DNA of 53,818 bases, taken from contig CAKJYB010000022.1 of NCBI GenBank assembly GCA_918241715.1, positions 1-53,818 of the forward strand, in the 5' to 3' direction. The notes beneath the pieces were generated by a model. It did not search any database. It was not told the DNA's origin and saw only the letters and a list, made by a program, of their open reading frames with translations. The DNA is from Clostridiales bacterium (GTDB lineage Bacteria; Bacillota; Clostridia; Christensenellales; UBA1242). Positions 14,171 through 53,692 of the stretch are shown here, piece after piece. A program made the position numbers and the translations under genes. Position 1 is the stretch's first letter. Every line of letters begins with the position of its first letter.

Positions 14171-17100
14171 TTATTTTACAGACATTTTTTCCATACGCTT
14201 TTTGTTTCTCTTAGCAATATAGATGATTGTGATTGCTGTTCCTGTCAAAGCCAAAACGGCAGCACCAATGAGATACCAATACCAAACTTCAGCTTTGCCA
14301 CCTTCAATCACGGCTCTTTCTCCAATCACACCAAACAATCCGTCATAACTTGTATCTACATACAAATATGGGTTGTAAATTGCCGTAACCTGATGTTTGT
14401 TGAAATTGAAACGTCCGTTAAAGGCGTGTTCGATTGTTCCGATTGGCGTCCAGAATTCTGCCCCAATCTTTAAATCTTTCTTCAAAACATAACTTGCTTC
14501 GCTATAGTATTCTCCATACAAATTTTTTGCTCCGGAGTTTACTTTTTGCATCACAAACACAAGTTCTTCCACGCTGGAAATCTCATAAGGGTTTCTCTTT
14601 GTTCCTTCTCCTTCAAGGTTTACTTCAACAACTTTTTCTTCCCAAAGAAGTCTTCTAAACATAACTTGAAGTCTCAAAGTTCCCACAACTTGATTTTCTT
14701 CAATATATTCTGTTGTAAGTGAGATTTTTCCTTTGTCATAGAATGGCATAAGGTCGATTTCTCTTTCTCCAATTCCAATGACAATCGTGTCGATTGAATA
14801 TCTTGGATTTACTTCAAATCCAATTGTCATGTCTTGTCCACGATCCATTCTAAACATGTTTGTTCTGCGTGAATTGTACAACACAAATCCTGCCAAGTTT
14901 ACGTTGTCGGCATCAACTGCATTCAAGCCCTTTTGTTCTTCAACAAAATCTCTATTTACATAAATTGCCATGATTTCGTTTTGGAAGTTTGGAAGAAGTC
15001 TTATGTAGTGGTTTTCTGACATTTCTGGAGAAATTGTAAGTTCGAAATAATACTTTCCGTCAGCATATCTTGTGTGTCTTACGTCGTCTCTGTTCCAAAG
15101 TGCAGCAAACCCACCATCAATTTCAACTGCAAAGGTAACCACGTCTCCAACTTTCACTTCGATTTCGTTGAGAAGAATTGTAAAGACGTTTCTTATCTTT
15201 GAGCCGATTCTAAACGAACGTGAAGTGTTGTTGATTGATGTCGCAATTGCAGACATGATTTGTCCATGTGTATAGTCATAAGGCACTTCATTTCCAAGAG
15301 AATCCTGACTTGTAAACTTGATTGTTACATAGTCCCCTTGCAAATTCATAACAAAAGTTGTTTTTGCTGTCACATAGAGTCTGTCCCACTCTGGCGCAAT
15401 CGAACTTCTGCCACTTGTGATGTTGTTCCATCTTACAAATGTGTAGCCTTCTTTTGGAACAGCTCTAAGCATGAATGGGATTGTTGAATCAACATAACCT
15501 GCTCTCAAAAGAGCTTCTGCTTGTGTGTCTTTTGTCTCTTGGACAATATCGTAGTATCCTTCACCACCATAGACAACAACGTCAATCTTTACGTAGTAAA
15601 CAACTTGAATGTTTACTTCAACAATTGCGTCAAGTTCGTTTGTTACCCAAGGAACTGATGTCTGGCTTGTAGAAACTGGTTTCAGCACTTCGCCATTCTT
15701 GTTCTTTTGTGAAATCACAAACTTATAGAACTTGTATCCGTCCATTTCTGGCGCCGTGATGTTTATTGAAGTGTTGAATGCAACTTCAATATAGTATGGA
15801 GAATCCTTGTAGAACCAAGAATTTGTATAATCAACACCTTCAACCATGTCTTGTGCTGTGATAAGTGTTGGCACAGATGGAACAAGAGTGAAGATTATTC
15901 TTGTCTTAAGGTATGACCAATATAGGAAGATGGAAATTTCCATATCTCCTGTTTGTTCGTTTATACGTGCGTTTGTTGTAAGTTTGTAAGTAGAACTTCC
16001 GATATCATAATAATATCCTGTGTCTTGCCACAAAAGTGATGGAAGTCCGTCAGAATTGATGTATCTTACGCCTGCACCATTTTCATAACTGAAGAAGCCT
16101 TCGTAGGTGTATCCTTGCTTGTTGAGTTTAAGGTTGAGTTTTCCACCTGCATAAACAAGTCTGTCGTCATAGACAGAAATGTTTCCTTCATTTGTCTTGT
16201 TTACATTTATGAGTTTGCTGTATTCAACATTTCTGATTGTCGCAAGAACGCTTCCGTCTTCAACAAGGTGAACGACATATCTTCTTGGAGTTATCACAAC
16301 CCTGATTGTTGCTTCTTCAAAATAGTCTGCAACAACAAATGTTATCACTCCCATATATCCCGTTGTGTAAATGTCCATCTCTTCAAACGCAACACTGCTT
16401 GCAACAACAAGTCCACTTTCGTCAACAAACTGAATGTTGTCTGGGTCAATAAGATATCCCATGTCGATATATGCGTAAATCTTGAATGAACTATCTGTGT
16501 AAGCAGACATTTCGATTGTTGAATATCCAATACCTGAAGAGAACACTTTTCTTGGTTCTGCTGTTTCATAATTGAATGCTCCACCATCAACAGAGTCTTC
16601 TTCGACAGCAAAATCAATGCTTATCTTGTTGAGTGTTGGTCTAAACAAAACTGAGATTTCGCAATTCTCTCCACCAACAACGCCAACAATTTTGTAAATT
16701 GCATCGCCATCGTCTGCATCAGCTATTCTTGAAACGTTCATATTTTCGTTTTCAAATGCAATTCCATAGAAGACAAATCCTGCTCTTTCAAGTTTTGCCC
16801 TGATAAAGATTTCTTCTCCTGTGCATGCAATAATTGTAAATTCTTTGTTGTTTACAAGTTCTCCGTCAGTATAGTCGTCCAAACTATAGTGAACTCTTGT
16901 TCCTTCAACATAGCCATATTCGTTTACGTCAGCACCTTCTCCGTCAACAAGTTTGATTGATCCAACATTTCTGTTTTCTTCTCTCTCTCCTTCAACGTCG
17001 ATTTCTGTCTTTACAAAGACTCTTGAGCTCAATGCTCTTACAACCATATATATAGTGATTTCTGTTTGCTCTTCGTCAAGTCCCAATGTGGAGATATTTA

Positions 17101-20100
17101 TATAACCCCTTGAATTTCCATCGTCTTTTGAAAGGTAAACAAAGTCTTCGCCATTTTTATATCCGTGTCCATAGAATCTATATCCTACAGGTGTATCATA
17201 ATATATGTTTTTGCTGGAGCCATAGTAAATGCTTGTCTTTGTTATACTCTTTGTCTTTTCTTCGTCTTCAAAATATTCTTCTCCAACGTTTTCAATTTCG
17301 TCGTAGTGCGTTTCCAGCATTTCAGGGTCCATATATTCGCTGTAAAGTGTGTAGTAGTTCAAGGTCTTCAATGTTACGTTGATTTTGATTGCAGAGAATA
17401 TTGCATAAATCGTTTCGTCGTCTTCAATTGTATATGTTGTGTTTCTGTCGTTGCTAAATACAATCGTTCCGTTTTTGCTCCAACCAGCAAAGTTGTAAAT
17501 CACATTTGAAGAAACAAATGCAAGTTCTATTTCTTCTCCAAATTCTTTTGTGATTGTCATTGTGTTGTTGTCTGCAATTTTTACTCTGTTTTGTTCTTCA
17601 AAAACTTGTTGCTTGCTGTCGTTGATGGATATAACTTCAAGCGTGATTGTATAACTTTCTATTTCTTCTTCAAAAGTTATTTCTCCATCAATCAAAATGT
17701 TTGAAATGGTGATTTCATAATATTTTTCTTCAAGTATTGTTGTCTCTTGAATATCAACGTCATATCCACTTTGTGTTTGATACGTTCCAACTCTGTAGCC
17801 GTGTTTGTATTTTACAACAAACGTCAAATCTTCTCCTGTTGGAACTTCGATTGAAATGTCTTCAAAGTTGTAATAGTTTCTCTCTTGATATACAAAAGAT
17901 TCAATATTTTCTGGGTTTTCAAATCCAACTGCAACATAGTGTTTGTCTTCCTGTGTTTCAAATGTAAATGCAACATTTCCAAGAATTCCAGAAATTTCAA
18001 GTGTCAACACTCCACCGGTCAAATCTTCGTCAATGTCAAGTGTGTCAACAGAAACGCTGTATCCACTTATCAAATAGCCTGTTGCGCCGTGAACAACCAT
18101 TCTTATTGTTCTGCCGGTTTCAACAGCAAATCTGTTTGCTGAAATTATGATTTCTTCTTCACCTTCTGTTATGTCATAGGCTTGAACAACTCCAACATTT
18201 TCACCGGAGTAAACAACAATGTTTTCGTCTGCCCTTGCTCTGATTGTGTAAGAATAATCTCTGCCAGGCATAATCACAACAAAGTAAATTTGTTCTCCCC
18301 TTGTGTAAGACGAAATCTCTTCTGGAAGTTCGCTTGCACTTGGAATGTGATATCCGTTGTTTGCTTTCACAATAAATGTGAGTGTTTCGTTGAATTGAAG
18401 TTCTGTTTCGTAAGAAGTAATTTCTTGCTCTTCAAACTCCATTGTTCCGTTTTCGATTTCAAGAGTAAGTGTGAAACTTGCAATCTCCCATCTTGCTGTA
18501 AGTGTGTGGGTGTTTGTTGTCGCCATCACATCACTTCCAATCACTCTCTGTCCGTTGTAGTTATACCAGCCCAAGAAGTTGTATCCTTCTCTTTCTGGTG
18601 TTTCAACCCAACCGGCTGAAGTGTTGTATGCACTTTCAAATGCAACTGCAATATTTTCTGTCAAGTCGTTGTAGCCATAATTGAGTGTTACCACAACCCC
18701 AACAGATTCAAAGTTTGGCGTCAAAGTCAAAACTTGATCGTTTTCTCCAACAACCAAATCTTGCAAAACAACATCTTCAAATTGTTCTGGCAAATATGTT
18801 GTTCCGGCTATGGTGATAGAATTTAATACATAACCAACTCTTTCAAGTCCAACATCTTCAAGTGAAGTCTCTCCAAGTTCAAAATAATTTGTCGTCCAAA
18901 TAATTTTTCCTTCGTCTTCAACAAATCCATCAATGTTTGTGCTTGTGTTTTCTGGGTCTGTTGTTGGGATTTCCACTCTCACGCTTTGAGCTTTAAATCT
19001 TACAACAATGTTGTAGCTCTTTGTCATTTTTGAAATTGTAAGTGTTGCTGTTGCTCCATCTCTTGTTACATTTACGAACATCGCCCCAGCCGTGTCATAT
19101 TTGTATCCTTCGTCTGCATCATAGAATCCAACATATGTGCAGTGTTCAAGTGGTGTTGCAAGAATTGAAACTTCTCTGTTGTATCCTGAAACAATCGTTC
19201 CGGCTCTGTCGATAACTTCTCCACCACTCTCTGCCGTTCCATAAGCAGCAGTTCTGCCATTTTCGTCTGCAATTCTTACATTTATTGAATATTCAACTTC
19301 TGACCAATCGGCTGTGAATGTAATAATTGGGTTTTCGTTTTCAAGATAATACATTCCCGCAATATTGTCTGTATCATCTCTCATAAGTTTGTTTAGAAGT
19401 GAAACTGAAGCAGCGTTGTTTCCAACATAGAAATCGAAAATTTCGTTTTCGTATGCTGTTTTAAGCAACAATTCTTCTGCAAGAGCACTTAAGAATTCGT
19501 ATTTTTGAGAATTTTCTTCCACGTTTGTAAACCTAAGCATCCAAGCCTTAAACGTATAACCTGTATAGCCTGAAAGTGATGTTGGGAAGTTTTCTATAAA
19601 CATTGTATCATTTTCGTATGAGTTTGATGTGATGTAAGAAATTGACACAAATGGGAATGCAAGTTTTGTTATGGTCTTGATTCCTGCAATTTCTGTGTTG
19701 GAGTGAACTGCCGTGCTTCCGTTTGCATTGTAGTCAAATCTTAAAGATACAACAATTGGTTCAATAACACCATAACTCCAATTTGTAATTCTGTAGTTGT
19801 CTGCATCTGCTCCACCAAGGGTTAATTCAACTTCAATCGTGTTTCCTATGTCATAAGAAGCATATTCGGCGCTTTCCAAATATACTGCATCTCCAGTCAA
19901 AACACCATCAAGAGCAAACTTGTCAACTCCACCTTCTTGAATTGAGCAGTTTGTGTTTCCATCATATTTCTTTGTAAACGCTTCTCCCAAGGTGCCTGAA
20001 GTTGCTGTGTAAGAAATGTCTTTCTTTGAAACTACAACTTTTGCTTCATTTGAATAAACAAGTTTCTCAACACCATCAACATTGAATGTTGGGCTGAAGT

Positions 20101-23100
20101 CTTTTATGTCGGTTGAGACTTCTATTCTATATTCTCCAACTTTGGCCTTGTTTGCTGTCGAAGTTTGTTCTCCAACAACGTGCAATCTGATGTCAATTCT
20201 TGTCATGTCATAGCCGGTCAAATCAATTTCTTCGTCGTATGTATAATCAAATGACAAGGTATAATCTTCTCCATAAACGATTCTTACAGAGTTGATGTAA
20301 ATCTTCATTTCGGCTTTTTCAATTGTTCCGTTTACCTGTGTTTCATCTGCAGTTAAAGTCAAAATTTGATAGTTTGAAACAACTTCATTTTCTCCAACAA
20401 GTTCTGCTTGAACAACATAGTTTTGTCCAACATACCTTGCTCTTTCAGCATTTTTGAAGAATTCAATCTTAAGTCCAACTTCTTCGCCGTCAACAACTCC
20501 GTCAACAAGTTCGTCTGCATCTTCATAAATGTAAATTGCATCTTTGTTGTCGAATGTTCTTGTGATTGTCTCTTCTTTAAATCTAAGTTCCTTTGGATTT
20601 ATCACAATGTTGTTGTAAACCTGACCAGTCTTCATGAGTGAGACATTATAGTTTTCTGCTTGAGCACTTTCGCACAAATATCTGTATATTCCAACATTTT
20701 TTACTTCTTCTTCTGCAAAACTTAAAACCGAAGTCAAATTTTGAAGAGTTTTTGCTGTTTTTACATATTTGCTTCCGTCATAAATGTAAGTGTTTAATGC
20801 AAACATTTTTTCGTTTGCTCCATCTGTGATAACCAATTTGTATTCGTCAGAAACTTTTCTTACTTGCAATTGGTTGTAGATGTTTCCATCATAAGCAAAT
20901 GCAACACTTTCTGCTGTCGAACTTGTGATTTCTTCTTCGTTTGAAAGGAGTAAGAACACAACAACTGAAGATTTTGTGATTCTATACATTCCGTCGCTGT
21001 TATCTGTTGTAGAACTAATCACAAAGTTTGGATCTGTTGTTGTGCTTGACAAAGCCCTATAGAATCCAACGTTCAATCCGTTTTGTCTTGTTACCTGAAG
21101 AACAACATCTTCAAAAATTGGTGTACGATATGTATAGTTGAATGTGTTTGGATTTGTTTCACCATATTCTACAGAAACAACTCCACTTGTTTCAAACACA
21201 ACATCAAGTGCATATTTTGAAACAACAAGTTTTACAGAGTTGTCAAATGTAAGATTGTAGTTGTCAGAACTTCCTGTCATTTGCAAACTATATTGCCCTG
21301 CAAACAAATAGTTCCATTGTGTGCTGTATGTTGCGCCAACAATTGTAAACTCAATATTATATTCGCTTGTGCCAACTTTGTTGTCTCCACAATAAACGCT
21401 AAACTGCAACGTGCTTGTGTTTGACAAATCTCCATAGGTATATTGAAGATTGTCAATTGTTACTACGGCAGTTTGTTTTGTTATGTCTCCCGTCATTGAA
21501 GCGCTTGAAAGTTGATAATTTCCTGCATCCTCCCCAACAAGTGAAAGTGAGATATTTTTGTTTGTTCCAACATTTGCATTTTCAAATCTTGCAACAATTG
21601 AAACGTCGTCTTCTCCAACTTTTTCTGCAAAAGTTGTGATAGTGTAATTCATGTTTCCGTCATAAATTTTTGAAACTGACAAGTTTGAAACATTTATCGC
21701 TTTCTTTTCAATTTCAAAGTTGTAATCTTGTTTAAAGATAATTATTGGATAAGAATTTGACCTTGTGTAAATTGCAAGTTTGTTTGTTCCTGCAGTTGTA
21801 AATTCTGTCTGTCTTATCTCTTGCCCCTGTCCATCTCTTGCTGGGCTGTATACTTCAATTTCGCTGAAATCTGATATTGTGATTTGTGTTGACTCCTCCC
21901 AGAATGTCAAGGCAGAAGTGTATGTGTTTGCTCCATTTGAAATTTCAAATGTTTGCGTTGAAAGATTTACAGAAAACTCATATTCGCTTCCGTTGTATGT
22001 TTGTGTCAAAATTCCAGTATTTACAATTCTTGCTTCAACAATATTGTTGTTTGCCAAAATTTCAAGACCTTCATTTGTTGGAACAGAAACCAAAACGCTT
22101 CCGTTTGCAAATGATGTCGTCTCTGGTTGAAGATTATAGAAGTGGTCGGCAATAAGTTGTGATGGGTTTGTAATTCCATAAGTATAATAACTTAAAGTGA
22201 TTGAATCCCCCGTCTCACTTATTGTCATTGGAACATCAACATAATTGTCTGTTCTGGTTGCAGGAGCAACAACCTTAAATGCCCCTTTGTTTAAGTTTTT
22301 AACAACGTTGAGAGGTGCCACTTGAATTTGTGGCTCTGTGATTGAAACGTCAAAATCTTCAAACGTTGCAGAAACATCAATTGTGTACGTTCCCACATAC
22401 AGACAGCCAGCTGTGTTTGCTTGTGCCAAACTTGGAAGAGCATATGAAATGGTGTATCTCTCTTCGTTTAATAAGTTTGTAACATTCTGTCCGTTTGCAT
22501 AAAGCACAATGCTTTGCAAAAGTGATTCAAAATTGTTTTCTCTTACTTCACCATAAACATAACTTGCTTTTGTTGTTGCAATTGTTCCTGTTGCAGAAAG
22601 TTTTGAAATGGTTGCTGTCGTTGATGGTGCGCTAAGTTCATAGTTTGCGATGTTTTCTTCTCCAGTTCCAACAACGTTCAACAAAACGTTTACGCTTGGG
22701 TTTGCGTAAGGTGATTCGTATGTTGCAAGAATATAAACATCTTCATAATTTTCAATTGATGGAATGACATCTCCGTTTAAATCAATATAAGCAATTGTCT
22801 TTCCATCATACACCTTGTCAAGATTGAAAGTTTCTACATCAAGTTCTTGCTTTTTGATTGTAAATTGATATCCGGTTTCAAATCTTATTGTTGTATAGTA
22901 ATTTGAAATCTGTTGTCCAAGATTGAATGTGTATGCATAAACGCCACAATCAATTGCGTGTGCAATATCAACTGAGTTGTTGAAGTATGGTGTTATGTCT
23001 GATACCTTTGTCTTGAGAATGTTTAAGATTGTAGAATTTGTTATTTCTTTTTGATTTGCAACGTCGTAGAGTTTGAGTTGGATATCTTTTATCTTTGTTT

Positions 23101-39935: not shown

Positions 39936-39976
39936 TAAAAAACACTTTAGCGATTTTGCTAAAGTGCTTTTTTTTT
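39936..39976. terminator. Bidirectional rho-independent terminator between the ankyrin gene and typA
   Basis: CACTTTAGC (39943-39951) / GCTAAAGTG (39958-39966) form a 9-bp stem with a 6-nt loop, flanked by an A-run and a T9 run. Confidence 0.8.
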
Positions 39977-45700: not shown

Positions 45701-48700
45701 TACAGGTTTTGATGCTTGATGTGTGTCTGTGATTGACATATAAGAATTTGATGTTGAAACATCATTATAAACTCTGTAAGTAAAGAGTGGTGAAGATGAG
45801 AATCCGTCCAAAAGTTTTTCTCTGTTTGCGCTGTCGTTGATTGACAAATAACCTTTGTTGTTTTGAACTACAGGCATAACAAGTTTGTATACATCTTCTA
45901 TTCTGTAGATTTCACTATCAACACCAATTGCGTTTCCGTTGATTTCTCCAATTGTAATAAATTGGATATAATCATACATACCGCTTCCACCATTTTCAAT
46001 GTTGAAACTTAAAGATCTCAAACTTCCGTCCAAAACTTCAACTTGTTCTGTCAAGCTGTCGTTTCTCTTATAGACAACAGTTGTGTTTTTGTTTGCTTGG
46101 GTCGTCCATGTAAAGATACCATTTTCGATTCCAAAGTTTTCTCCCATTCCATAGAGTGTGAGTTTGAAATATTCTGATTTGCTTGATGCCGTGATGTCGT
46201 TTCCAACAGCATACAACTCCATGCTGTAAGAACCCTTTGTAATTTCGTCTCCATAAACTCCAAGAAGAGAGTCGTTGTTGTGGTGATTGATGTAGAACAT
46301 CAAATAATTTCCATCAACTTGAATATTTCCGTTTTCGTCGGTTTCATAAACTGAAACAGAATTTACATTTTCTGAATCAAGCATTCTCAAGCTATATGTG
46401 TTTACAAGTTTTTGAATTGTAAAGATCATTGAAGTTCCCACATCGTTGTAAACTTTAAGAACATAATCTTCTGTTGTTTGTTGTGCGTATGTATCGTCAT
46501 ACAAATAACTCTTTCTAAGAATAATCTTATAGTGATTTACAGCCATTGAAGATGTTGTTTCTCTGACCGGTCTTACGCTTGGCTCCTGTCCAACATAAAC
46601 AACATTTTCGCCGTTTGTGTTGCTGAATTGATACCAATAAGAATTGAGTGTTTTGTTTCCACCAACCATGCAGTATTCAAGAGAGTATCTTCCAAGTTGA
46701 ATTGCTTCAAAGTAATCATCAAAAATCTTTCCTACACTTGCAACACCATGATTGCCGTTTTTCATAAGTTCCTTAAACTTTGTAAGGTTGCTTACAATTT
46801 GCGTCTCTCCAATCTTGGAAATCAAAATGTCAATCTTATCTTCAAGTGTTGGGTCAATATCAAAGATGTTTGAAACCAAATCTTTTGCGTTTACTTCAAC
46901 ACTCTTGATTGTTGTGGTTGAACCTTCTTCTTGAGTAAATTTAAATCTGATTTTTATCTTGTCTTGAACAAGGTCTGCAATAGTAAATGTAAATGGATAG
47001 TTGTAAGTCTTTGCAACAAATTCTCTTGCCTTTGGAGCAGTTATGTCTTCAACTGCTGAAAGTTTTTGTATAAAGTCTCCGTTTGATTCCCATTCAAAAT
47101 AGAATTTTCCGTTCTGCAAAACAAGTGGTGATTTTATCATGTTTTTTGTCACCTTTACAGGTTCACCATCTTCGGACACATAAACAAGTGCCGATGGCAA
47201 AACGTTTGGATCTTCGTTTACTGCTTGAATTGCAATATAGTATGCCTTGTTTTGTCCAACAAAGTCTGTTGCAGTAAATCTTTCGTCTTCAACTTCAAAT
47301 CTTGTAAAGTCGTCTCCCATTTCTCCATCAACAAGTTCTTCAACAAAGTATACATAATATTTGTCGTCTGTTTGAGAACTATGTGTCCAAGAAAGTTGTC
47401 CTGAAGAAAGGTTTAATCTTCTTATATTTTCAACTCTGTCAAATTCAAGATAATCGTCTGTTGCTGACAACCAGTTTGAAATTCTGATTTGTCCAAGACT
47501 TGTTATTTGAAGAGTTGCAATATCAACTCTAAAATGTCCAAACTGCTCTTTAAGCAATTCTGTCTGTTCAAAGAGTTTTGTAAGGTTGATTATGTAAGAG
47601 TTTGCTCCTTGATAATAATCAGAAGTAAGGTCTGTAACGTATGTCGTAACAACTTCGTCTTCTTCGTTGATAACTCTCACAAACACACCCGTAAAGAAAT
47701 ACGTTCCACTTGGCTTGTCAAGGAAGATGTGTGCTGTTGCATAATCTGTCTTGAAGTCAGAGCCCGGTGTCTGTTCGTATTTTTCAACTTTGTCATATCC
47801 ACAACTTTCAACGTATGTAAATTGATATGATACTGAGGAATTTGTGATGTAGTTTGTTTCTTCTGAAAGTGGCTCTTGATATGCCCAGAAGTAAAGTGTT
47901 ACATTTCCGTATGGTGTGTCGCCATATTCTGTTGAAAGAATGTCCAAAAGTTTTTGTCCGGAAATTCTGTAAACAGCTTGAACGTCAACATCTCTTACGT
48001 GTTGCACTTCAATTTCACTAACTTGTCCGTTTTTAAGTGCGTCTTCTGAAACACCAAAGAAGATTGTGTCAAATCCATCTTTTCTGATGGTCAACGCAAG
48101 TCCATCGGTAATTCCAAGGTCAATTCCAACAGACTCAATTGCAACTCCCATTTCAAACTTAAACATCTTGTCTGCCGTTGTAAACACTGCAGAATCAAGA
48201 ATGAAGTCTGAGCTTGTTGAACTCCCAGAGATATTCCCCAAAACAAGAATTTCAAGGTTTACCTTTGCACCAACATTAAGTTCTGCTCCCAAGAAACTTG
48301 CATCAATCTTAAGTTGGTTTGTTTCAGCTTCCACAATTGTCCATGGAGAGCATGTGATTGCTTCTTGTGATCCGTTTACAAATCTGTAAAGATATTTTGT
48401 TCCTGCAACTACATCAATAGTTACAATGCCATATTCGTTTACTGCAACATCTTCAACAGAATTTCTGTTTCCTTTGATTGTTGCATTAAACACATATTCT
48501 GTTGAATTGTTTGCGTTTGCATTTTGTCCAATTGCAGAAATTCCGATTCTTACGTCCAAGTCGTTTGGTATGCTACTTATTTCTCCGTAAGCAACAACTT
48601 TTGAGAAATTCTTTCCAAAAATATCAAGCGTTGTGTGAGAATTTCCTGTAAGTTGTGTTCTGAAAATCACACGATCATCTTCGTCATACATTTTCAAAAC

Positions 48701-51700
48701 ATACCCAGAAGCACTTGCTATTTGCGTCCATTGAAGAGTTACTTCTGAAAGGTCCGTTGTGTCTCTTGATATAGACACGCTTGTCACTGGGTCGATTCTG
48801 TCAAGCACAAAGTTTATTGTGTTTGGAACAGATTGAACGTAGTTTCTTTCTGTTGCATAAAGTTTTAAGTCATAACTTCCGTTTTCCCATGATGTGTCAA
48901 ATTCAAAGAAGAACTTGTCGTCTCTATAACTTACTTCATAAACAGAAGACAAGTATTCAACAACATACATAGTTGATGTTCTGTTTAAATCTTCGTCAAT
49001 TTCAAAACCTGCAGAAGTGTTTGTTATGTTTGCAACTTTGACAGAACTCAAAACATTGTATTCTGCACTTTCCATATATTCTGCGCAAGCCAAGTGGTAA
49101 ACTTTGTTTGAATCGTCAGCCGAACTTTTTGTTGTGATTGCAACTTTGATTTTTCCACCATCTGAAAGGTTTGTCGCAATAAAATCTGCAAGAGAATATT
49201 CCACCCTGTTTGTTATGTCTGCAACAGGAATTGCAAGGTATTCCGTTATTACTTCGGTTTCTCCTGCCTTTGTGTATGTAATTTTTGCAACAAGGCCACC
49301 ATCAATCAAGTCGGTGTGGCTTTCGTCAATTCCCACAACAATCTTTTGTGTATATTTTCTGTCAACAGCTTCAAATTCTACACTTGTGATTTTTGCAGCA
49401 CGAACAACATTTACGCTTCCCATTGAAGATGGAATGTCCGTTTCGCTAAGTGCAAAAATTTTGATTGTTGCTTGTGCCCCAAAGGCAATCTTGTTGTTGT
49501 ATACGTCGCTTGTGATTGTGTATGTATAAACCCCGTCTGCCTTTGTGATGTTTGTTGTTGCAAGAACATCATTATTTAAGAGAATTCTAAATTTTCCATT
49601 GTTGTCATAATTTCCTGTAAATTTTACAACAATGTCTGGTTCGTTTGCCTTTGACAAATCATTTTCGTCGTCAAACGCCAAAGAACTTATCACTGGCGTT
49701 GTGAGTTTTTTGATTGTAAGTGGTGAGTTGTATTCAAAGTAGTTTGCTTCTGTGTTTCCGTTTTCAAGTTGTTGCGCTAAGGCATAATAAACGTTTCCAC
49801 CTGCAACAACTTCATATGTTTCAAGGAAAGCATAGACAACAATGTCAATATTTCCTTCTTTCAATGCCGAAATCGTTGTGTAAAGTTGGGTGTTTGTGCT
49901 GAAGTTTAATGAATGTTCCGTTGTTGTGTAAACAGCAACATTTTCTCCGTCATTAAACATCACTGCATATTTAAGTTTTGAAAGCCCAACGCCTTCTGCA
50001 AATTCGTCCCAAGAAAGTATGTTGCTTGCATATGATACAACAACTGATGCAGGAGCAAGTGTGGACATGTTTGTAAGTGTCCAGTTCTTTGTTTCGCTGT
50101 CAAGATATGACGTCGTCATGTCTCCACTTGTCAAACCTTTCTTCCCAACAACTTTAAGGCTGATTGTTCCGTTTCCAGAAACGTCAATCTTTCCTGTTGT
50201 GTTGTGGTCGTTTGCTCCAACCAAAACATAATCTACAAAGCCTTGTTCTTCTGCTTTGATTTGATATTCAAGTTTTCCGTCAAACTCTCCACCAGAAATC
50301 ATTTTGATTTTGTTGATAGAATCAAGTTTGTAAATTCTTATTGTGTTTGAATTGTTGGAATCCATATAATATGGATTTTCTGCAACAACATAGAATGAAT
50401 AATATGTTGACAAATCAAATTCTGAAAGAGAATAAGATGCCGTTGTTGCACCAGAAATTGGCCCACCATATTCTTCTCCGTTTACATACATTTGATATGT
50501 TGTGTGTGCTGCAGCAGCTGTGCTTGTTGCAACTTCTTCCCAATTGAATATGATGTTTGCCCCTGAAAGTTGATATTCAATTTCTGGGCTTGACATTTTT
50601 TCAACTTTTGCAACTTTCTTGCTTGCATCTGCTTTGAGTGTTGCATATTGTGAAACAAGTTTGTCAACATTTGTGTTTGGCATAGAATAGATTGCAAAGC
50701 CATAGTCAACAGCGTTGTTGTAAGCATGATTTATTTCACTGTTTTCTGCATTTTTAAGAAGATTTACAATTCCGTCTATGTCTATTGTTGCAACACCAGA
50801 AATTGTTTCAACAAAATCATTTGTGTCGCTGAGAGTTTCTTCTGTGTCTTCATAAATTGCAACAACATCTTCTGTCAAAACAACTTTTATGTTTTCAACA
50901 ACATTGTTTGAATTTCTGCACAAAACATTTATTGTATAACCAGATGTTCTAACAGATTCTGCGTTTTCAACAATCAATTTTCCGTCTTCATATTCAAAGT
51001 TTGACAATGTTCCAAGTCTTGTAAATGTAAGATTGCTTACTTCGCTGTCAAGGAAGATTTTGTGGTCTTCAATTCCAAAATATTCTCCTGTCTTTGTTGA
51101 ACCATAATATTTGAAACTTAAATCAATTGTAGAGTATCCAGTCAAGTCAAAACTTGCAGTCCTTGCTGATGCACTTCCTGCGCAGTTGTTTTCGTCTGCT
51201 GTTTCCCAGAGTTTTACTCCCTTTGCGTTCTCCACTGCTTCAATATGAAGTTTTTGCTCTGTGTTTGAAGTGTCAACATTGTAATATCTGTCCACAACAA
51301 AAGTCCAGTCATCAATCGACACGTCTGCTTTTGTTATTTGTGGAAGTTTCTTTATTGTCAAATTGTAGTCGTCAGAATCCAAATACAAATCACCATCGTT
51401 TGAATGAGCAGTAATTGCAACTACGTATGTCTTTGACGTGTCCATAAATGTCTGCGTGAGTGTGTATTTGCTTGTCTGTCCGGCAACAACAGAATTTGTA
51501 ATTCTAAATGTGTCTATTGCAATTTCAAAGCTGTCAACATTTTCTGTGTTTTCAACTTCCAAATAATACTTTTCTTCTACGGCATCATAACCAAACTTAA
51601 CTTGCCCTACTTCAAGTTGAACGGCAACACAAACAAGCGCTTTAAGGGCCTGTGTTGCAGAAATATAAACGTTTTCATTTCCAGACAAAGCATAAACTTC

Positions 51701-53692
51701 TACATAATAATAGCCCTCTTCGTCAAAGTCGTATCTGTTTTCGTCAACAACTTGTTCGTCAACTTCAAGACCTGTTGTGTCAATGTCTGTTGAGCCAGAA
51801 TCGTATGTAGCCTTGTCAATCTTGTATGCAAGAACTCTGTAAGACCCAACATTTTCGTCTTCCGTCCATGTGCAGAACATGTCTGTATTTTGTCTTGCAA
51901 CCATTTCAGGAACATCAAGTTCTGTCAAGGTCTTTTCAAAAGAAGAGTTTATTGTTGTGCTGTCGTTGTTTGTTTTTGCAACAATTTTTGTTGTTATCAC
52001 TCCGTCTTGCATGTATGTTCTCAAAACATCTTCAATCTTTCCCGTAAGTTCAATAACAACATTGTTTTCACCAACTGATACGCTGTAATATGTTTGTGCA
52101 AGTTTTCTATATTCTTCTCCGTCCAAAACATACATTTCATATTTTGTGGCATTTTCAATCTTTGCAAGAGTAAATGTTGACTTGTCGTTTGCGTAAGCGT
52201 GCATCACGTTTACAATATGAGCAAGTTTGTTTACTTGAATTTCATCTGTAGCATCAGAGTTGATTGCAAAAACAACATCATCTCCAGAAGTATAACTTTC
52301 ATTGTTTGGAATGTGTCTTCCTGATATTGTGTAAACGCCAACTTGAGAAAGTTCCAATGTGAGATTCTTTCTTGTAACACCAGAAGAGAATCCTTCTTTT
52401 CTTACACTTGTTCCAGAAACGTCCATGATTATACTTGTTTCGTATGGAGTTGTGCTTCTTGCAACAAATCCCCACGTGTTGGAGTTTTCTTCGTTGTTGT
52501 TTGCTCCGGTGATTGTCATTGGAGCAAGTTTGTAAAGATTTTCTACCTTTGCAGAACTGCTCTTGAAATAATATCCTTCAATAGGGTGAGCAATTATTTC
52601 TACGCTAAAGAGCCCTGCATCAATTCCATCAAACGTAAGTTCTATATCTTCGGCTTCAGTTGTCAACGTTCTTGTTTCAACGTTTTCATTTGCTGAAATT
52701 TTGATTTCATAATTTAATATATGTTCTTCATTTCTAAAGCAAACTCTTCCACCAAGATCTTCGTCAAAAGAATATTCTGCCGTCGGTGCAGAAAGTTTTA
52801 AAACTTGCACTTCTTCACTTCTTGTTGGAAGTTTTTCTCCAGCCAAATCATAGCAAACAACTTCAATTGCGTGTGACCCACCTTCAGCGTTTGTCATATA
52901 TTCTGCAATATTTGCAGTTGTTGCTGAAAGGAAATCTCCAAGGACTACTCCGTCCAAAGAAACTTTGTATCTTGCATTTTCAACTCCTTCCCATGTCAAC
53001 GTTCCGTCGTTTGTCCACTCTATATCTTCAGCAAGGATTTGTGGCATTGCGCCATAGTAGAATGTGATTTCTTCTGATTGTTCACTTGAATCAAAGTATC
53101 CTTTTCCAACAGCAGAAACTTTGAGTTTGTAAATTCCAAATTCTGTTGGAACATATTTGTTTGTAGAAACCGTTGTGTCTATTTCTCTTTCTCCGGTAGG
53201 CTCTCCATCTCTGGAAGAAACAAGGGTGAGATTTCCAAAAACTTTGTATTGTGAAGCAATTGTTGGTGCTTCGTCATCTTGATAGAAATCAGAAACAACA
53301 TTCCATGTAAACTCTCCATTTTCTGAAAGGAGTTTTCCGTTTTCGTCAACGTTAAATCCTGTAGGAACGGAGAATGTGTCTTTTACGACAATATGTAATT
53401 TTGCCAAAACGTTTGAGCTGTATGTTGCATAAAGATATGTTGCGCCTTTGTTTTCTGCTCTGACAACGTTTCCTTCAACAGAAACAATTGTCTTGTCTTC
53501 ACTCTTGACAACAACATTTTTTATATTTCCACTGACCTTGAGATAGTCTTTCAAATTTATCGTTTCACCAACAGATAAAAGTTCTTCACTTGTGGTGAAG
53601 TCGGCTTTTGGACTTCTGCCAGAGCAGGCAACAAGTGTTGTTCCCAGCACAATGAGCAGAAGAGACATAATCATTAAACGAAACTTTTTCAT
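42779..53692 (-). CDS. Giant (3,637 aa) surface lipoprotein: lipobox signal, Big_2-like domain, long FN3/Ig-like module array, C-terminal GLUG-type beta-helix
   Basis: An uninterrupted 10.9-kb frame with AGGAG SD 6 nt upstream of the ATG at 53692. MKKFRLMIMSLLLIVLGTTLVACSG has lipobox LVAC. Module signatures are listed in the sub-features and findings. No C-terminal TM and no LPXTG. Confidence 0.9.
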   Translation of the reverse strand: MKKFRLMIMSLLLIVLGTTLVACSGRSPKADFTTSEELLSVGETINLKDYLKVSGNIKNVVVKSEDKTIVSVEGNVVRAENKGATYLYATYSSNVLAKLHIVVKDTFSVPTGFNVDENGKLLSENGEFTWNVVSDFYQDDEAPTIASQYKVFGNLTLVSSRDGEPTGEREIDTTVSTNKYVPTEFGIYKLKVSAVGKGYFDSSEQSEEITFYYGAMPQILAEDIEWTNDGTLTWEGVENARYKVSLDGVVLGDFLSATTANIAEYMTNAEGGSHAIEVVCYDLAGEKLPTRSEEVQVLKLSAPTAEYSFDEDLGGRVCFRNEEHILNYEIKISANENVETRTLTTEAEDIELTFDGIDAGLFSVEIIAHPIEGYYFKSSSAKVENLYKLAPMTITGANNNEENSNTWGFVARSTTPYETSIIMDVSGTSVRKEGFSSGVTRKNLTLELSQVGVYTISGRHIPNNESYTSGDDVVFAINSDATDEIQVNKLAHIVNVMHAYANDKSTFTLAKIENATKYEMYVLDGEEYRKLAQTYYSVSVGENNVVIELTGKIEDVLRTYMQDGVITTKIVAKTNNDSTTINSSFEKTLTELDVPEMVARQNTDMFCTWTEDENVGSYRVLAYKIDKATYDSGSTDIDTTGLEVDEQVVDENRYDFDEEGYYYVEVYALSGNENVYISATQALKALVCVAVQLEVGQVKFGYDAVEEKYYLEVENTENVDSFEIAIDTFRITNSVVAGQTSKYTLTQTFMDTSKTYVVAITAHSNDGDLYLDSDDYNLTIKKLPQITKADVSIDDWTFVVDRYYNVDTSNTEQKLHIEAVENAKGVKLWETADENNCAGSASARTASFDLTGYSTIDLSFKYYGSTKTGEYFGIEDHKIFLDSEVSNLTFTRLGTLSNFEYEDGKLIVENAESVRTSGYTINVLCRNSNNVVENIKVVLTEDVVAIYEDTEETLSDTNDFVETISGVATIDIDGIVNLLKNAENSEINHAYNNAVDYGFAIYSMPNTNVDKLVSQYATLKADASKKVAKVEKMSSPEIEYQLSGANIIFNWEEVATSTAAAAHTTYQMYVNGEEYGGPISGATTASYSLSEFDLSTYYSFYVVAENPYYMDSNNSNTIRIYKLDSINKIKMISGGEFDGKLEYQIKAEEQGFVDYVLVGANDHNTTGKIDVSGNGTISLKVVGKKGLTSGDMTTSYLDSETKNWTLTNMSTLAPASVVVSYASNILSWDEFAEGVGLSKLKYAVMFNDGENVAVYTTTEHSLNFSTNTQLYTTISALKEGNIDIVVYAFLETYEVVAGGNVYYALAQQLENGNTEANYFEYNSPLTIKKLTTPVISSLAFDDENDLSKANEPDIVVKFTGNYDNNGKFRILLNNDVLATTNITKADGVYTYTITSDVYNNKIAFGAQATIKIFALSETDIPSSMGSVNVVRAAKITSVEFEAVDRKYTQKIVVGIDESHTDLIDGGLVAKITYTKAGETEVITEYLAIPVADITNRVEYSLADFIATNLSDGGKIKVAITTKSSADDSNKVYHLACAEYMESAEYNVLSSVKVANITNTSAGFEIDEDLNRTSTMYVVEYLSSVYEVSYRDDKFFFEFDTSWENGSYDLKLYATERNYVQSVPNTINFVLDRIDPVTSVSISRDTTDLSEVTLQWTQIASASGYVLKMYDEDDRVIFRTQLTGNSHTTLDIFGKNFSKVVAYGEISSIPNDLDVRIGISAIGQNANANNSTEYVFNATIKGNRNSVEDVAVNEYGIVTIDVVAGTKYLYRFVNGSQEAITCSPWTIVEAETNQLKIDASFLGAELNVGAKVNLEILVLGNISGSSTSSDFILDSAVFTTADKMFKFEMGVAIESVGIDLGITDGLALTIRKDGFDTIFFGVSEDALKNGQVSEIEVQHVRDVDVQAVYRISGQKLLDILSTEYGDTPYGNVTLYFWAYQEPLSEETNYITNSSVSYQFTYVESCGYDKVEKYEQTPGSDFKTDYATAHIFLDKPSGTYFFTGVFVRVINEEDEVVTTYVTDLTSDYYQGANSYIINLTKLFEQTELLKEQFGHFRVDIATLQITSLGQIRISNWLSATDDYLEFDRVENIRRLNLSSGQLSWTHSSQTDDKYYVYFVEELVDGEMGDDFTRFEVEDERFTATDFVGQNKAYYIAIQAVNEDPNVLPSALVYVSEDGEPVKVTKNMIKSPLVLQNGKFYFEWESNGDFIQKLSAVEDITAPKAREFVAKTYNYPFTFTIADLVQDKIKIRFKFTQEEGSTTTIKSVEVNAKDLVSNIFDIDPTLEDKIDILISKIGETQIVSNLTKFKELMKNGNHGVASVGKIFDDYFEAIQLGRYSLEYCMVGGNKTLNSYWYQFSNTNGENVVYVGQEPSVRPVRETTSSMAVNHYKIILRKSYLYDDTYAQQTTEDYVLKVYNDVGTSMIFTIQKLVNTYSLRMLDSENVNSVSVYETDENGNIQVDGNYLMFYINHHNNDSLLGVYGDEITKGSYSMELYAVGNDITASSKSEYFKLTLYGMGENFGIENGIFTWTTQANKNTTVVYKRNDSLTEQVEVLDGSLRSLSFNIENGGSGMYDYIQFITIGEINGNAIGVDSEIYRIEDVYKLVMPVVQNNKGYLSINDSANREKLLDGFSSSPLFTYRVYNDVSTSNSYMSITDTHQASKPVLYETGVNDLDEHDADYGYRETENNAAKFYVSSIGSTAEFGFFQEGADYYIKTIYGMEDGVKSLKRMIVSSEYKETNARMMDMADGIGITNGMLSWNAVEGRTEQEGSDLILNPDVDVVYRVAVAKYKVSNTSIGQTETILDSIQYFYTTKLLFDFSNVAESASDADVKYLKASVKAFAMKVGAEIPEGLSEDDCLPLVEGGYAFGNVQYKETNTYVLMSEANSLNEIERTQKVENARVSNGKLVWEFVVDGQADIDYDLLQEYQFAVVDEALEEVEGECVVSNDTEYVRDGDNNIVGTKFFITFNENFGQISEGAQTLTIYATRLDDTKHIIRSYGAEVEITKLKTITEEDFAITSTTNSSIEILDISAYFARYQDINLTIETNLEDRTGLEVEDIIFTRTKTLLYILSGDVETLPTGSNIAGIITITDGSQQVIMKAITTASGHLYSDQTEDIVLQRAQWDGLIAWDPNIQQFEWEYDGKYSIQSSVEAVEVEVDGSSYTEIGDATLSAGTLYTIVEEIGSEVVIEADVKVEEVETTKLYRIAKTDAIGPTYIVEVKYKDAGITRTYTTLQNHFKPTLIDTQVELRLRIKLGPTNIQSAETRFYIENVPGEKIYSVEFNLFENLNNQAGGNLVSDGTENKPYYIKTKQQFMNLSMRMKKDIDWTEYVENGSQITEESVFYFKLIDDITLDNFSGMLFGNEFGGVIDGRYANNTGNYKITYTAIDIGNLSSEIIIDRHLSSTTDRFAKGIALFEKLADGAVIKNIDLDITYNKESGTISKNSLFAGLAITNNGQIDNVNLVNFSTNLQGNIAGGEIDMLYAGLVSINIGGSAVITNCHNTADMIVNTYGNSQRNCIAGIVSVNYARVENCVIGTSGVSTTFKVLGEDKTVEIKVSGVATINMENSTIRNCQNYTLMTAQAIDGDDWLAYFAGIVAHNDGTLDNTNHNYNYVEQTTAGTGVGIIRQGEIYVAAE
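42782..43815 (-). other. C-terminal GLUG-type / right-handed beta-helix-like domain of the 3,637-aa protein
   Basis: GTENKPYYIKTKQQFMNLSMRM...FKLIDDITLDNFSGMLFGNEFGGVIDGRYANNTGNYKITY..., then periodic turns FAGLAITNNGQIDNVNLVNF, LYAGLVSINIGGSAVITNCHN, IAGIVSVNYARVENC and FAGIVAHNDGTLDN. Confidence 0.6.
53405..53605 (-). other. Big_2-like (bacterial Ig-like group 2) domain
   Basis: LLSVGETINLKDYLKVSGNIKNVVVKSEDKTIVSVEGNVVRAENKGATYLYATY fits the Big_2 pattern (L.vG.t..L......n..v.w.Ssd..iatV...G.v.a...G.a.i.a). Confidence 0.6.
53624..53692 (-). other. Lipoprotein signal peptide (Cys23 lipidation site)
   Basis: MKKFRLMIMSLLLIVLGTTLVA|CSGRS: basic n-region, hydrophobic core and L-V-A-C lipobox. 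Confidence 0.8.

What the first reader, a model, noticed from the sequence alone, without database searches (positions are those of the whole stretch)
14171..53692. Two giant genes share one cap-plus-GLUG module in opposite membrane topologies and occupy ~54% of a housekeeping region
**What the sequence shows**
- The same module type occurs four times. It starts with G-x-G/E-x3-PY-x-I-x3-x-[QEDL]-[LF], followed by GLFG / hGGhhG turns.
- Two copies are at the N-terminus of the 6,010-aa protein: ...KTIHLETDVDL... and GSGKKYDPYRIYSVGDL.
- One copy is next to its C-terminal membrane anchor: GTKRNPYEISSVEEL.
- One copy is at the C-terminal tip of the lipoprotein: GTENKPYYIKTKQQF.

**Inference**
- Because one protein is anchored by its C-terminus and the other by its N-terminus, both would display a GLUG-type module at the membrane-distal end. 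The larger protein additionally has one at the base.
- The two genes are only ~10.6 kb apart, on the same strand, and are separated only by core genes (trpS...typA). There are no mobile-element hallmarks.
- This looks like a chromosomally fixed pair of surface fibres, possibly cooperating or self-interacting through the shared module, rather than horizontally acquired cargo.
Basis: inference. Interest (0 to 1): 0.7.

Follow-up and report, generated by a model that had tools for sequence, protein, structure and literature searches.

The report
Two giant GLUG-tipped surface proteins
Two very large, vertically inherited cell-surface proteins of an uncultured spore-forming Clostridia lineage each carry a common "GLUG" beta-helix binding head at the end far from the membrane; the shared head is a widespread domain, not a sign that the two proteins work together.

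Summary
The window is a whole 53,818-bp contig. It carries a 6,010-aa protein (g1: signal peptide, C-terminal membrane helix) and a 3,637-aa lipoprotein (g2), 10.5 kb apart on the same strand. Together they make up 53.8% of the contig.

- **Four modules.** A cap HMM finds exactly four cap-plus-beta-helix modules: g1 74-208, 498-635 and 5864-5976, and g2 3296-3432.
- **Homology.** The three g1 copies match each other by BLAST (1e-7 to 3e-13). The g2 copy matches only at profile level (hhalign 6e-14 to 8e-13; shuffled controls 0.14-0.73).
- **Fold.** An AF2 model of the g2 module (pLDDT 86.5) best matches GLUG / IgA1-protease N-terminal beta-helices (3n6z, 7uvk, 6xja).
- **Origin.** Composition is native. 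The g2-typA-dnaB-gltX-trpS-g1 order recurs in three other genomes. One distant relative has g2 but no g1 there.
- **No special link.** The module is generic: 293 GLUG proteins from many phyla match, usually with 2-3 caps each. g2's cap is no closer to g1's caps (ranks 30, 52 and 87 of 87) than to foreign ones.

Best reading: two surface fibres with ligand-binding GLUG heads at the far end. Cooperation through the shared module has no support. This is a new member of a known kind, of modest interest.

The parts
14171..32203 (-). g1: 6,010-aa giant protein (signal peptide ... C-terminal TM anchor). An alternative upstream ATG lies at 32230.
   Evidence: ORF, translation. The exact 6,010-aa product is in the NCBI-derived collection. 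Orthologues are in L001, L002, L009 (5,923 aa) and P0166.
32123..32203 (-). g1 N-terminal signal-peptide-like segment (MKRKGLLALFALTFGLCSLLGLLG...). Cleavage is inferred, not tested.
   Evidence: Hydrophobic segment 4-27. Orthologues have the same n/h-region followed by AXA-like sites.
30881..32011 (-). M1: cap (31607-32011) plus a long GLUG beta-helix with GLFG, GGLVG, GGVIG, GGIVG x2 and GGIIG turns.
   Evidence: Pfam Glug 1.6e-5, 25.4 bits against a 20.5 cut-off. Weak Peptidase_M26_N hit. Cap HMM 1e-39. Turn motifs.
30251..30739 (-). M2: second cap (GSGKKYDPYRIYSVGDL) plus a short beta-helix (GVFG).
   Evidence: BLASTP to M1 3e-13. Cap HMM 9e-35. The tandem M1+M2 head is typical of ~1,000-aa GLUG proteins, which cover up to 82% of the query.
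19784..21706 (-). g1 stalk region with two YDG domains (21497-21706, 19784-19984) and weak MBG hits.
   Evidence: Pfam YDG 1.8e-12 and 6.1e-9; MBG_2 2e-4. Internal repeat 3109-3229 / 3491-3602.
15308..18634 (-). g1 stalk region with Listeria-Bacteroides / InlB-B-type repeats (Flg_new, Flg_new_2).
   Evidence: Pfam Flg_new 1.6e-5 to 1.2e-4; Flg_new_2 6e-6 to 1.7e-4.
14303..14641 (-). M3: truncated module (cap GEGTKRNPYEISSVEEL plus about three rungs ending in GLFGVIG), lying directly against the TM helix.
   Evidence: BLASTP to M1 4e-9 and to M2 1e-7. Cap HMM 1.3e-28. Conserved in orthologue P0166.
14210..14278 (-). g1 C-terminal transmembrane helix, followed by the basic tail KRNKKRMEKMSVK.
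   Evidence: Hydropathy peak at 5976-5998. The same TM and tail are present in P0166. No LPxTG.
42779..53692 (-). g2: 3,637-aa giant lipoprotein. It belongs to a colinear, length-conserved family (3,531-4,041 aa).
   Evidence: No Pfam domain reaches its gathering cut-off anywhere in g2.
53627..53692 (-). g2 lipoprotein signal peptide with lipobox L-V-A-C (MKKFRLMIMSLLLIVLGTTLVAC).
   Evidence: Sequence. A lipobox is present in 24 of 28 full-length family members.
42782..43807 (-). M4: C-terminal cap (43397-43807, GTENKPYYIKTKQQF) plus a divergent GLUG-type right-handed beta-helix running to the last residues.
   Evidence: hhalign 8e-13 and 6e-14 against GLUG caps. AF2 pLDDT 86.5, pTM 0.88. Foldseek top hits 3n6z, 7uvk, 6xja and 6xjb. 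The M4 profile hits the 3n6z cap at E 0.0032.
41883..42749 (-). u288: small protein with a signal peptide and C-terminal TM anchor, 30 nt downstream of g2. Conserved partner position.
   Evidence: Topology. A 267-328-aa gene follows g2 in L001, L002, L004, L009, L011 and L012, and truncated or shorter ones follow it in L007, L008 and L010. No terminator-like site in the 30-nt gap between g2 and u288.
35199..37142 (-). u364 (lipoprotein, lipobox MAGC) and u279 (N-terminal TM anchor): lineage-specific envelope proteins between dnaB and gltX.
   Evidence: Alignment A2 with an invariant G-C lipobox. Topology. Present in L001, L002, L004, L009 and L012; absent in L011.
32457..41804 (-). Core block between the giants: trpS, gltX, dnaB, typA (plus the envelope genes above).
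   Evidence: NCBIfam equivalog hits: TIGR00233, TIGR00464, TIGR00665 and TIGR01394.

Best explanation
g1 and g2 are two vertically inherited, membrane-anchored fibrous surface proteins of an uncultured, apparently spore-forming Clostridia lineage. g2 is lipid-anchored at its N-terminus. It extends about 3,300 residues of non-repetitive, probably FN3/Ig-like stalk and ends in a GLUG-type right-handed beta-helix (M4). g1 is secreted through an N-terminal signal peptide and held by a C-terminal transmembrane helix. Its tandem GLUG head (M1+M2) therefore sits at the far end of a roughly 5,200-residue stalk containing YDG, MBG and Listeria-Bacteroides repeats, and a three-rung mini-module (M3) sits at the membrane. 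By analogy with the beta-helix of M26 IgA1 proteases, which binds the Fab of IgA1, the distal heads most likely act as ligand-binding (adhesive) tips. That the two proteins share the module reflects the wide use of this domain as a head on bacterial surface proteins, not a specific partnership.

Shown: the genes, modules, homology, fold of M4, anchoring signals, native composition and synteny. Inferred: signal-peptide cleavage, surface display, fibre shape and adhesive function.
For: **Modules and homology**
- Exactly four caps.
- BLAST links among M1-M3.
- Profile-profile link of M4 to GLUG caps at 6e-14 to 8e-13, with clean controls.
- Pfam Glug above its cut-off in M1.

**Fold of M4**
- AF2 model: pLDDT 86.5, pTM 0.88.
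- Best PDB matches are 3n6z (GLUG protein BACOVA_03286), 7uvk, 6xja and 6xjb (IgA1 proteases), probability 0.95-1.0. Generic beta-helices follow.
- The M4 profile hits only the 3n6z cap in PDB sequences.
- The IgA1P beta-helix binds IgA1 Fab and gates the active site (PMC7695701).

**Anchors**
- Lipobox in g2 and in 24 of 28 family members.
- C-terminal TM plus basic tail, conserved in P0166.
- No LPxTG and no HExxH in either protein.

**Stalk**
- YDG, MBG and Flg_new domains in g1.
- FN3-like W...Y signatures in g2.

**Native and fixed**
- GC3 and RSCU match the core genes.
- Same gene order in L001, L002 and L009.
- The g2 family is colinear, with a length CV of 3%.

**Lineage**
- SpoVB-like gene in the window; YabP and YabQ beside g2 in relatives.
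Against: - There is no expression, localisation or binding data.
- Signal-peptide cleavage of g1 is not testable here. If the peptide is not cleaved, g1 would be anchored at both ends.
- The g2 stalk has no recognised domain, so its fibre shape is an assumption.
- Foldseek TM-scores for M4 are modest (0.31-0.50) with large rmsd.
- The high, uniform conservation and fixed length of g2 fit a structural envelope role as well as an adhesin.
Confidence: 0.65

Rival explanations
1. One reading: the two fibres cooperate or self-associate through the shared cap/GLUG module (head-to-head or head-to-base contacts), which would explain why they are kept together.
For: Both giants keep the same relative position in four genomes. 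Both heads would be membrane-distal, and g1 has an extra basal module, M3, conserved in P0166.
Against: The module is generic: 293 hits, with 2-3 caps per protein in many phyla. M4 is not specifically related to g1's caps, which rank 30, 52 and 87 of 87; its best hit is a Sedimentisphaerales protein. BLAST of M4 against M1-M3 is not significant. A distant relative keeps g2 without g1 at the locus. No interaction test was possible.
Confidence: 0.08
2. The giants are structural envelope components (a spacer, sheath or S-layer-like fibre coat, possibly with u288, u279 and u364) rather than adhesins. The beta-helix ends would serve assembly or wall contact.
For: The g2 family is colinear over about 3,600 aa, with a length CV of 3% and no internal repeats. 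That is unlike repeat-variable adhesins. The genes sit in a fixed origin-proximal core position, with dnaA and dnaN about 8 kb away in L011. Three conserved small envelope proteins lie in the same block.
Against: No similarity to known S-layer or wall-binding domains: no SLH, CWB2 or LysM hits. GLUG heads elsewhere sit on ordinary surface proteins and on a protease that binds a host protein. The g1 stalk carries adhesin-type domains, YDG, MBG and Flg_new.
Confidence: 0.15
3. The beta-helix heads are enzymes (glycan lyase/hydrolase-type or protease-associated) carried on long tethers.
For: Weaker fold matches to GH136 lacto-N-biosidase, pectate lyases and phage tailspike depolymerases. The family name derives from IgA1 proteases.
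Against: Those matches have low probability (0.44 or less) and TM of about 0.3 or less. There is no HExxH motif and no M26 catalytic domain. The invariant M4 residues are structural: Gly, Asn, Phe, Ile and Cys ladders.
Confidence: 0.08
4. The giants are horizontally acquired cargo or an assembly artefact.
For: None found beyond their size and rapid divergence: 27-34% identity between orthologues against 76-77% for DnaB.
Against: Native GC3 and codon use. No tRNA, integrase or transposase. Orthologues occupy the same place in independent assemblies from different sources.
Confidence: 0.02

Closest known systems
GLUG-motif proteins (Pfam PF07581), exemplified by Bacteroides ovatus BACOVA_03286, PDB 3n6z
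   Same: The G-T-x3-P-Y-x-I cap followed by a helix and a right-handed beta-helix with G-rich turns. 3n6z is the best fold match and the only PDB sequence-profile match for M4. g1 residues 1-711 hit 293 such proteins, many with the same tandem two-cap head.
   Different: Known members found here are about 600-1,250 aa. In this window the head sits on stalks of 3,300 and 5,200 aa. In g2 it is at the C-terminus of a lipoprotein. M4 is too divergent for the Pfam model (E 0.73). M3 is a three-rung stub next to a TM helix.
N-terminal beta-helix domain of M26 IgA1 metalloproteases (S. pneumoniae 6xja/6xjb, G. haemolysans 7uvk; Pfam PF05342)
   Same: Fold matches with probability 0.95-1.0. Weak PF05342 hit in M1. 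That domain is a protein-binding (IgA1 Fab) module (PMC7695701).
   Different: No metalloprotease domain and no HExxH in either giant. No G5 domain. TM-scores are only 0.38-0.50.
Gram-positive fibrillar adhesins (stalk of beta-sandwich repeats plus a distal binding domain). Examples: S. aureus Ebh with a C-terminal membrane anchor (own knowledge) and L. reuteri SRRP with a beta-solenoid binding region (PDB 5nxk, a weak hit)
   Same: Overall logic: secretion signal, very long stalk, binding-type domain at the end away from the anchor. Adhesin-type YDG, MBG and Listeria-Bacteroides repeats in g1.
   Different: No LPxTG sortase signal. The stalks are non-repetitive in sequence. g2 has the inverse polarity: N-terminal lipid anchor and C-terminal head. 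Both genes are core, syntenic and length-conserved rather than variable.
Giant genes of Omnitrophota and other bacteria (bioRxiv 10.1101/2023.11.21.568195)
   Same: Large, poorly annotated, surface-implicated proteins found in metagenomes.
   Different: That study's headline giants exceed 30,000 aa, and its full-length ones carry many TM regions, most with SecA-like domains. g1 and g2 are 6,010 and 3,637 aa, with one or two hydrophobic segments only.

Membership tests
GLUG-motif beta-helix domain (PF07581 / head of GLUG proteins) | Match to the Pfam Glug model at or above its gathering score (20.5 bits) | tested here: inconclusive
   M1 alone scores 25.4 bits (passes). The 601-aa segment containing it scores 20.3 bits. 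M2 and M3 give no hit. M4 scores 10.8 bits, E 0.73.
GLUG-motif beta-helix domain (PF07581 / head of GLUG proteins) | Homology of the N-terminal cap (G-T-x3-P-Y-x-I, helix, first rungs) to caps of annotated GLUG proteins | tested here: met
   g1 1-711 hits 293 GLUG proteins, down to 1e-29. A profile of foreign caps against the M4 family gives hhalign 98.2%, 6e-14, with controls at 0.14-0.73. Cap HMM i-E is 5.6e-6 on g2.
GLUG-motif beta-helix domain (PF07581 / head of GLUG proteins) | Right-handed beta-helix fold resembling 3n6z / the IgA1P N-terminal domain | tested here: met
   Tested for M4 only. AF2 pLDDT 86.5. Foldseek rank 1-3 are 3n6z, 7uvk and 6xja, probability 0.95-1.0, TM 0.31-0.50.
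M26 IgA1-specific metalloendopeptidase | Zinc-binding HExxH catalytic domain (Peptidase_M26_C) | tested here: not met
   No HExxH in g1 or g2. No M26_C hit in any Pfam scan.
Bacterial lipoprotein (g2) | Basic n-region, hydrophobic h-region and lipobox [LVI][ASTVI][GAS]C within about 25 residues | tested here: met
   MKKFRLMIMSLLLIVLGTTLVAC. A lipobox is present in 24 of 28 full-length family members. Lipidation itself is not testable here.
C-terminally membrane-anchored surface protein (g1) | N-terminal secretion signal plus a single C-terminal TM helix followed by a basic cytoplasmic tail | tested here: met
   Hydrophobic segments at 4-27 and 5976-5998 only. TM and tail are conserved in P0166 at 46% identity. 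Signal peptidase cleavage was not tested.
Sortase-anchored (LPxTG) Gram-positive adhesin | C-terminal LPxTG motif before the hydrophobic segment | tested here: not met
   No LP.[TSA]G anywhere in g1 or g2.
Fibrillar adhesin (stalk of tandem beta-sandwich domains plus a distal adhesive domain) | Stalk made of recognised repeated stalk domains | tested here: inconclusive
   g1 has YDG x2, weak MBG, and Flg_new / Flg_new_2. g2 has no domain above cut-off, only fn3_2 at E 0.011 and eight FN3-like W...Y signatures. There is almost no internal sequence repetition.
Fibrillar adhesin (stalk of tandem beta-sandwich domains plus a distal adhesive domain) | Demonstrated binding of the distal domain to a ligand | not testable with these tools
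   Rests only on analogy to the IgA1P beta-helix, which binds IgA1 Fab.

The most novel reading that the evidence does not exclude
g2 (with its constant downstream partner u288) and g1 (with u279 and u364) form a lineage-specific, origin-proximal surface-fibre apparatus of an uncultured Clostridia clade. The strictly length-conserved, non-repetitive 3,600-aa lipoprotein would act as a molecular ruler or spacer. The GLUG heads, including the membrane-proximal M3 stub, would make defined head-to-head or head-to-base contacts that organise a fibre coat.
Probability: 0.07. Interest if true: 0.6.

Novelty: new member of a known kind. Interest (0 to 1): 0.3.

Why it matters
This defines an uncharacterised family of about 3,600-aa lipoproteins. 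At least 28 full-length clusters at 50% identity exist, and the first roughly 3,300 residues have no Pfam coverage. The family ends in a divergent GLUG beta-helix that current domain models miss. It is paired in several species with a roughly 6,000-aa GLUG-headed, C-terminally anchored protein.

For people who annotate gut or environmental Clostridia MAGs, it gives a usable label ("GLUG-headed surface fibre") and a conserved genomic marker: rluA-g2-u288-typA-dnaB. It also shows the GLUG head used at either end of a fibre.

It does not reveal a new mechanism. The suggestion of a cooperating pair is not backed by the data.

Tried and rejected
- **Word-indexed homologue search with M4:** nothing found. 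The exhaustive representative search was needed.
- **Single-sequence AF2 of M4:** useless, pLDDT 37. Repeated with a 21-sequence alignment.
- **PDB sequence searches with single M1 and M4:** no hits.
- **Whole-protein Pfam scans:** miss Glug even in g1. Modules had to be scanned alone.
- **Self-BLAST of whole giants:** uninformative because contained HSPs are culled. Redone with 250-aa chunks.
- **Exact look-ups of the window's DnaB and g2 in the gene-position index:** not on record.
- **Metagenome scan with a u364 alignment:** nothing found. The second scan with DnaB gave only a 4.6-kb fragment, L006.
- **Literature searches for GLUG:** almost nothing relevant.
- **Rfam and tRNA scans of the window:** empty.
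- **Rejected readings:** foreign origin; an M26 protease; a sortase-anchored adhesin; g1 as a lipoprotein, because the Cys in its h-region is preceded by L or V and is absent in L002.
Full report
**What is in the window**

The window is a complete 53,818-bp contig from an NCBI assembly. GC content is uniform at 0.33-0.39. GC skew is negative throughout on the plus strand, and nearly all genes lie on the minus strand.

Two ORFs dominate:
- g1 at 14171..32230, which the source calls from the Met at 32203 (6,010 aa).
- g2 at 42779..53692 (3,637 aa).

They are 10,549 bp apart.

Between them lie trpS, gltX, dnaB and typA, all with NCBIfam equivalog hits.
- u364, a lineage-specific lipoprotein with an invariant G-C lipobox.
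- u279, with an N-terminal TM helix.
- u288, with a signal peptide and C-terminal TM helix, 30 nt downstream of g2.
- A 101-aa ORF with two TM segments upstream of dnaB. Small ORFs of 83-88 aa occupy the same position in L004, L009 and L011.
- A plus-strand ankyrin-repeat ORF at 38919-39935, Ank_4 1.5e-11.

To the left are a spoVB-like gene, ksgA, tatD, a trmN-like gene, ricT, holB, a P-type Ca-ATPase and uppP. No tRNA, Rfam family or mobile-element gene was found.

**The four modules**

- Pairwise BLASTP links the three g1 copies: M1-M2 3e-13, M1-M3 4e-9, M2-M3 1e-7. It does not link the g2 copy, where E is 0.04-1.
- Pfam's Glug model passes its cut-off only in M1 (25.4 against 20.5 bits), with a weak Peptidase_M26_N hit. 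M4 scores E 0.73.
- Profile methods settle the M4 question. An alignment of M1-M3 plus their orthologues against the three M4 orthologues gives hhalign 94.7%, 6e-8.
- With 87 caps against 34 M4-family sequences, the result is 97.8%, 8e-13.
- Using only caps from foreign GLUG proteins, it is 98.2%, 6e-14. Reversed or column-shuffled controls give 0.14-0.73.
- A cap HMM finds exactly four caps in the two giants: g1 74-208, 498-635 and 5864-5976, and g2 3296-3432. The g2 hit has i-E 5.6e-6 and was not part of the training set.

**Fold of M4**

A single-sequence AF2 run failed with pLDDT 37. With a 21-sequence alignment of the g2 family (A1) the model reached pLDDT 86.5 and pTM 0.88. It shows a short N-terminal strand, a helix, and then a long run of short strands.

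Foldseek against the PDB ranks these first, with probability 0.95-1.0:
- 3n6z, Bacteroides ovatus BACOVA_03286, deposited as a "putative IgA1 protease".
- 7uvk, 6xja and 6xjb, the M26 IgA1 proteases.

Generic right-handed beta-helices (pectate lyases, tailspikes, SRRP) come next, at low probability. TM-scores are modest, 0.31-0.50.

The M4 family profile hits just one PDB sequence, 3n6z, at exactly the cap motif "LFEKGNGTDSKPYMIMNATQIRNM" (E 0.0032).

In S. pneumoniae IgA1 protease, this beta-helix binds the Fab of IgA1 and gates the active site (PMC7695701). It is therefore a protein-binding module in the one case where its role is known.

**How common the module is**

g1 residues 1-711 hit 293 proteins. 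Essentially all are 600-1,250-aa GLUG-motif proteins from Bacteroidales, Firmicutes, Planctomycetota and other groups. Many cover 73-82% of the query, so they have the same two-cap head. Among the 120 listed proteins there are 250 caps, mostly two or three per protein.

M4's cap is no closer to g1's caps than to foreign ones. The window's M3, M2 and M1 rank 30th, 52nd and 87th of 87, and the best hit is a Sedimentisphaerales protein. The two giants therefore use two independently diverged members of one widespread head domain. They do not share one module in any special sense.

**Topology**

- g2 begins MKKFRLMIMSLLLIVLGTTLVAC, a canonical lipobox. 24 of 28 full-length family members have one.
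- g1 has only two hydrophobic segments, at 4-27 and 5976-5998, the latter followed by KRNKKRMEKMSVK.
- The orthologue fragment P0166 (46% identity over 1,509 aa) keeps M3, the TM helix and the basic tail.
- Neither protein has LPxTG or HExxH.
AXA-like sites follow the h-region in all orthologues, but cleavage could not be tested.
- M3 is only a cap plus about three rungs, and it abuts the membrane.

**Stalks**

- g1 carries two YDG domains, weak MBG hits and Listeria-Bacteroides / InlB-B repeats.
- g2 has no domain above its Pfam cut-off. It has only FN3-like W...Y signatures, eight by regex.
- Chunked self-BLAST finds almost no internal repetition. In g1 only the caps and one YDG pair repeat. 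In g2 nothing does.

**The g2 family**

An exhaustive search with M4 found 41 representatives. About 32 of them are 3,500-4,040 aa with M4 at the extreme C-terminus.

The 28 full-length members have a mean length of 3,730 aa with a CV of 3%. They align colinearly with 6.6% gaps and about 30% mean identity to g2. The best-conserved stretches are 2301-2700 and 3301-3500, the latter lying in M4.

**Origin and synteny**

GC3 is 0.300 for g1 and 0.293 for g2, against 0.29-0.34 for core genes. RSCU correlation with the core is 0.97 and 0.96. There is no sign of foreign origin.

A DnaB-anchored scan of GTDB genomes found two relatives with 76-77% DnaB identity: MAGs labelled "uncultured Clostridia" and "uncultured Lachnospiraceae". 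Both have the order g2 homologue, u288, typA, dnaB, two unknowns, gltX, trpS, g1 homologue. The giants are only 27-34% identical to the window's.

The contig of the closest g2 relative (L009) shows the same order. It ends with a 5,923-aa gene carrying YDG and Flg_new hits, whose N-terminus has the M1 cap.

- L004 and L012 show the g2 side, with u279- and u364-like genes.
- L007, L008 and L010 show the conserved upstream genes yabP and rluA, with cvpA also upstream in L008.
- The most divergent member, L011, lies about 8 kb from dnaA and dnaN. It has g2, a 290-aa gene, typA, an 88-aa gene, dnaB and gltX. It then continues with SIMPL and nrdD, and has no u279, u364, trpS or g1.

g2 with u288 therefore looks like the older, wider unit. 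g1 with u279 and u364 accompanies it in a sub-lineage.

YabP and YabQ in relatives, and a SpoVB-like gene in the window, suggest a spore-forming Firmicute.

A terminator-like hairpin after trpS and a promoter-like site ahead of g1 suggest that g1 is its own transcription unit. No terminator-like site lies in the 30-nt gap between g2 and u288. Both are weak consensus evidence.

**Interpretation**

The best-supported reading is two membrane-anchored surface fibres with ligand-binding GLUG heads at their distal ends (confidence 0.65).

- Shown: genes, modules, homology, the fold of M4, anchor signals, native composition and synteny.
- Inferred: signal-peptide cleavage, display on the surface, fibre shape and adhesion.

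Rivals:
- A structural coat or spacer role (0.15). The fixed length and colinearity favour this.
- Enzymatic heads (0.08). There are only weak fold hits, no catalytic motif, and the invariant residues look structural.
- Horizontal acquisition or artefact (0.02).

**Comparison with known systems**

These proteins work like Gram-positive fibrillar adhesins, and their heads belong to the GLUG / IgA1-protease N-terminal beta-helix family. They are not M26 proteases and not sortase substrates.

The new elements are:
- the architecture: a GLUG head at the C-terminus of a 3,600-aa lipoprotein, and a three-rung stub beside a TM helix;
- the core, syntenic, length-conserved nature of the genes;
- the unannotated stalk sequence.

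At 3.6-6 thousand residues they are far below the >30,000-aa proteins discussed as "giant genes" (bioRxiv 10.1101/2023.11.21.568195).

**Verdict:** new member of a known kind, interest 0.3.

Noticed in passing
window 38919-39935 (+): A 338-aa ankyrin-repeat ORF (Ank_4 1.5e-11) on the opposite strand, between typA and the small membrane ORF/dnaB. No ORF of 150 aa or more lies in that interval in L001 or L002, and none is called there in L009 or L011 beyond the small 83-88-aa ORF. L004 (451 aa) and L012 (197 + 114 aa) have different inserts at the same place, so typA|dnaB looks like a small variable spot in an otherwise fixed block.
   Followed up: partly
window 41883-42749 (-): u288: a protein with a signal peptide and a C-terminal TM helix plus basic tail, with no family hit. 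It lies 30 nt downstream of g2, with no terminator-like site in that gap. A gene of this kind follows g2 in every related locus examined (267-328 aa where complete), including the distant L011. It is a candidate partner of g2.
   Followed up: partly
window 35199-37142 (-): u364 (lipoprotein, invariant G-C lipobox, mostly helical-looking sequence) and u279 (N-terminal TM anchor) sit between dnaB and gltX. They have no Pfam or NCBIfam hit. They are conserved in L001, L002, L004, L009 and L012 but absent in L011, the same genome that lacks g1 at this locus.
   Followed up: partly
window 14303-14641 (-): M3 is a truncated module (cap plus about three rungs) directly abutting the TM helix, and it is conserved in orthologue P0166. 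It is unclear whether such a short beta-helix stub is stable alone or needs a partner.
   Followed up: partly
window 42779-53692 (-) and P0001-P0037: The g2 family is strikingly length-conserved (3,531-4,041 aa, CV 3%) and colinear (6.6% gaps). It has no internal sequence repeats and no Pfam coverage over about 3,300 residues. The most conserved stretch apart from the head is residues 2301-2700.
   Followed up: partly
window 38527-38832 (-): A 101-aa ORF with two TM segments just upstream of dnaB. Small ORFs of 83-88 aa occupy the same position in L004, L009 and L011. It gives only weak BacA-like hits.
   Followed up: no
window 2936-4360 (-): A 474-aa ORF with no family hit. Its C-terminal half is extremely K/E/D-rich and low in complexity (for example KKKPAKKKDAGKGGKGKGDKDKPKKDDKKKGGGG).
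   Followed up: no
L011 373-3045; L004, L008-L012 upstream of g2: In relatives g2 lies next to yabP (with yabQ in L009), cvpA and an rluA-type pseudouridine synthase. In L011 it is about 8 kb from dnaA and dnaN. The locus is therefore origin-proximal in a sporulation-gene-bearing Firmicute. The uniformly negative GC skew of the window fits all genes lying on the leading strand.
   Followed up: partly
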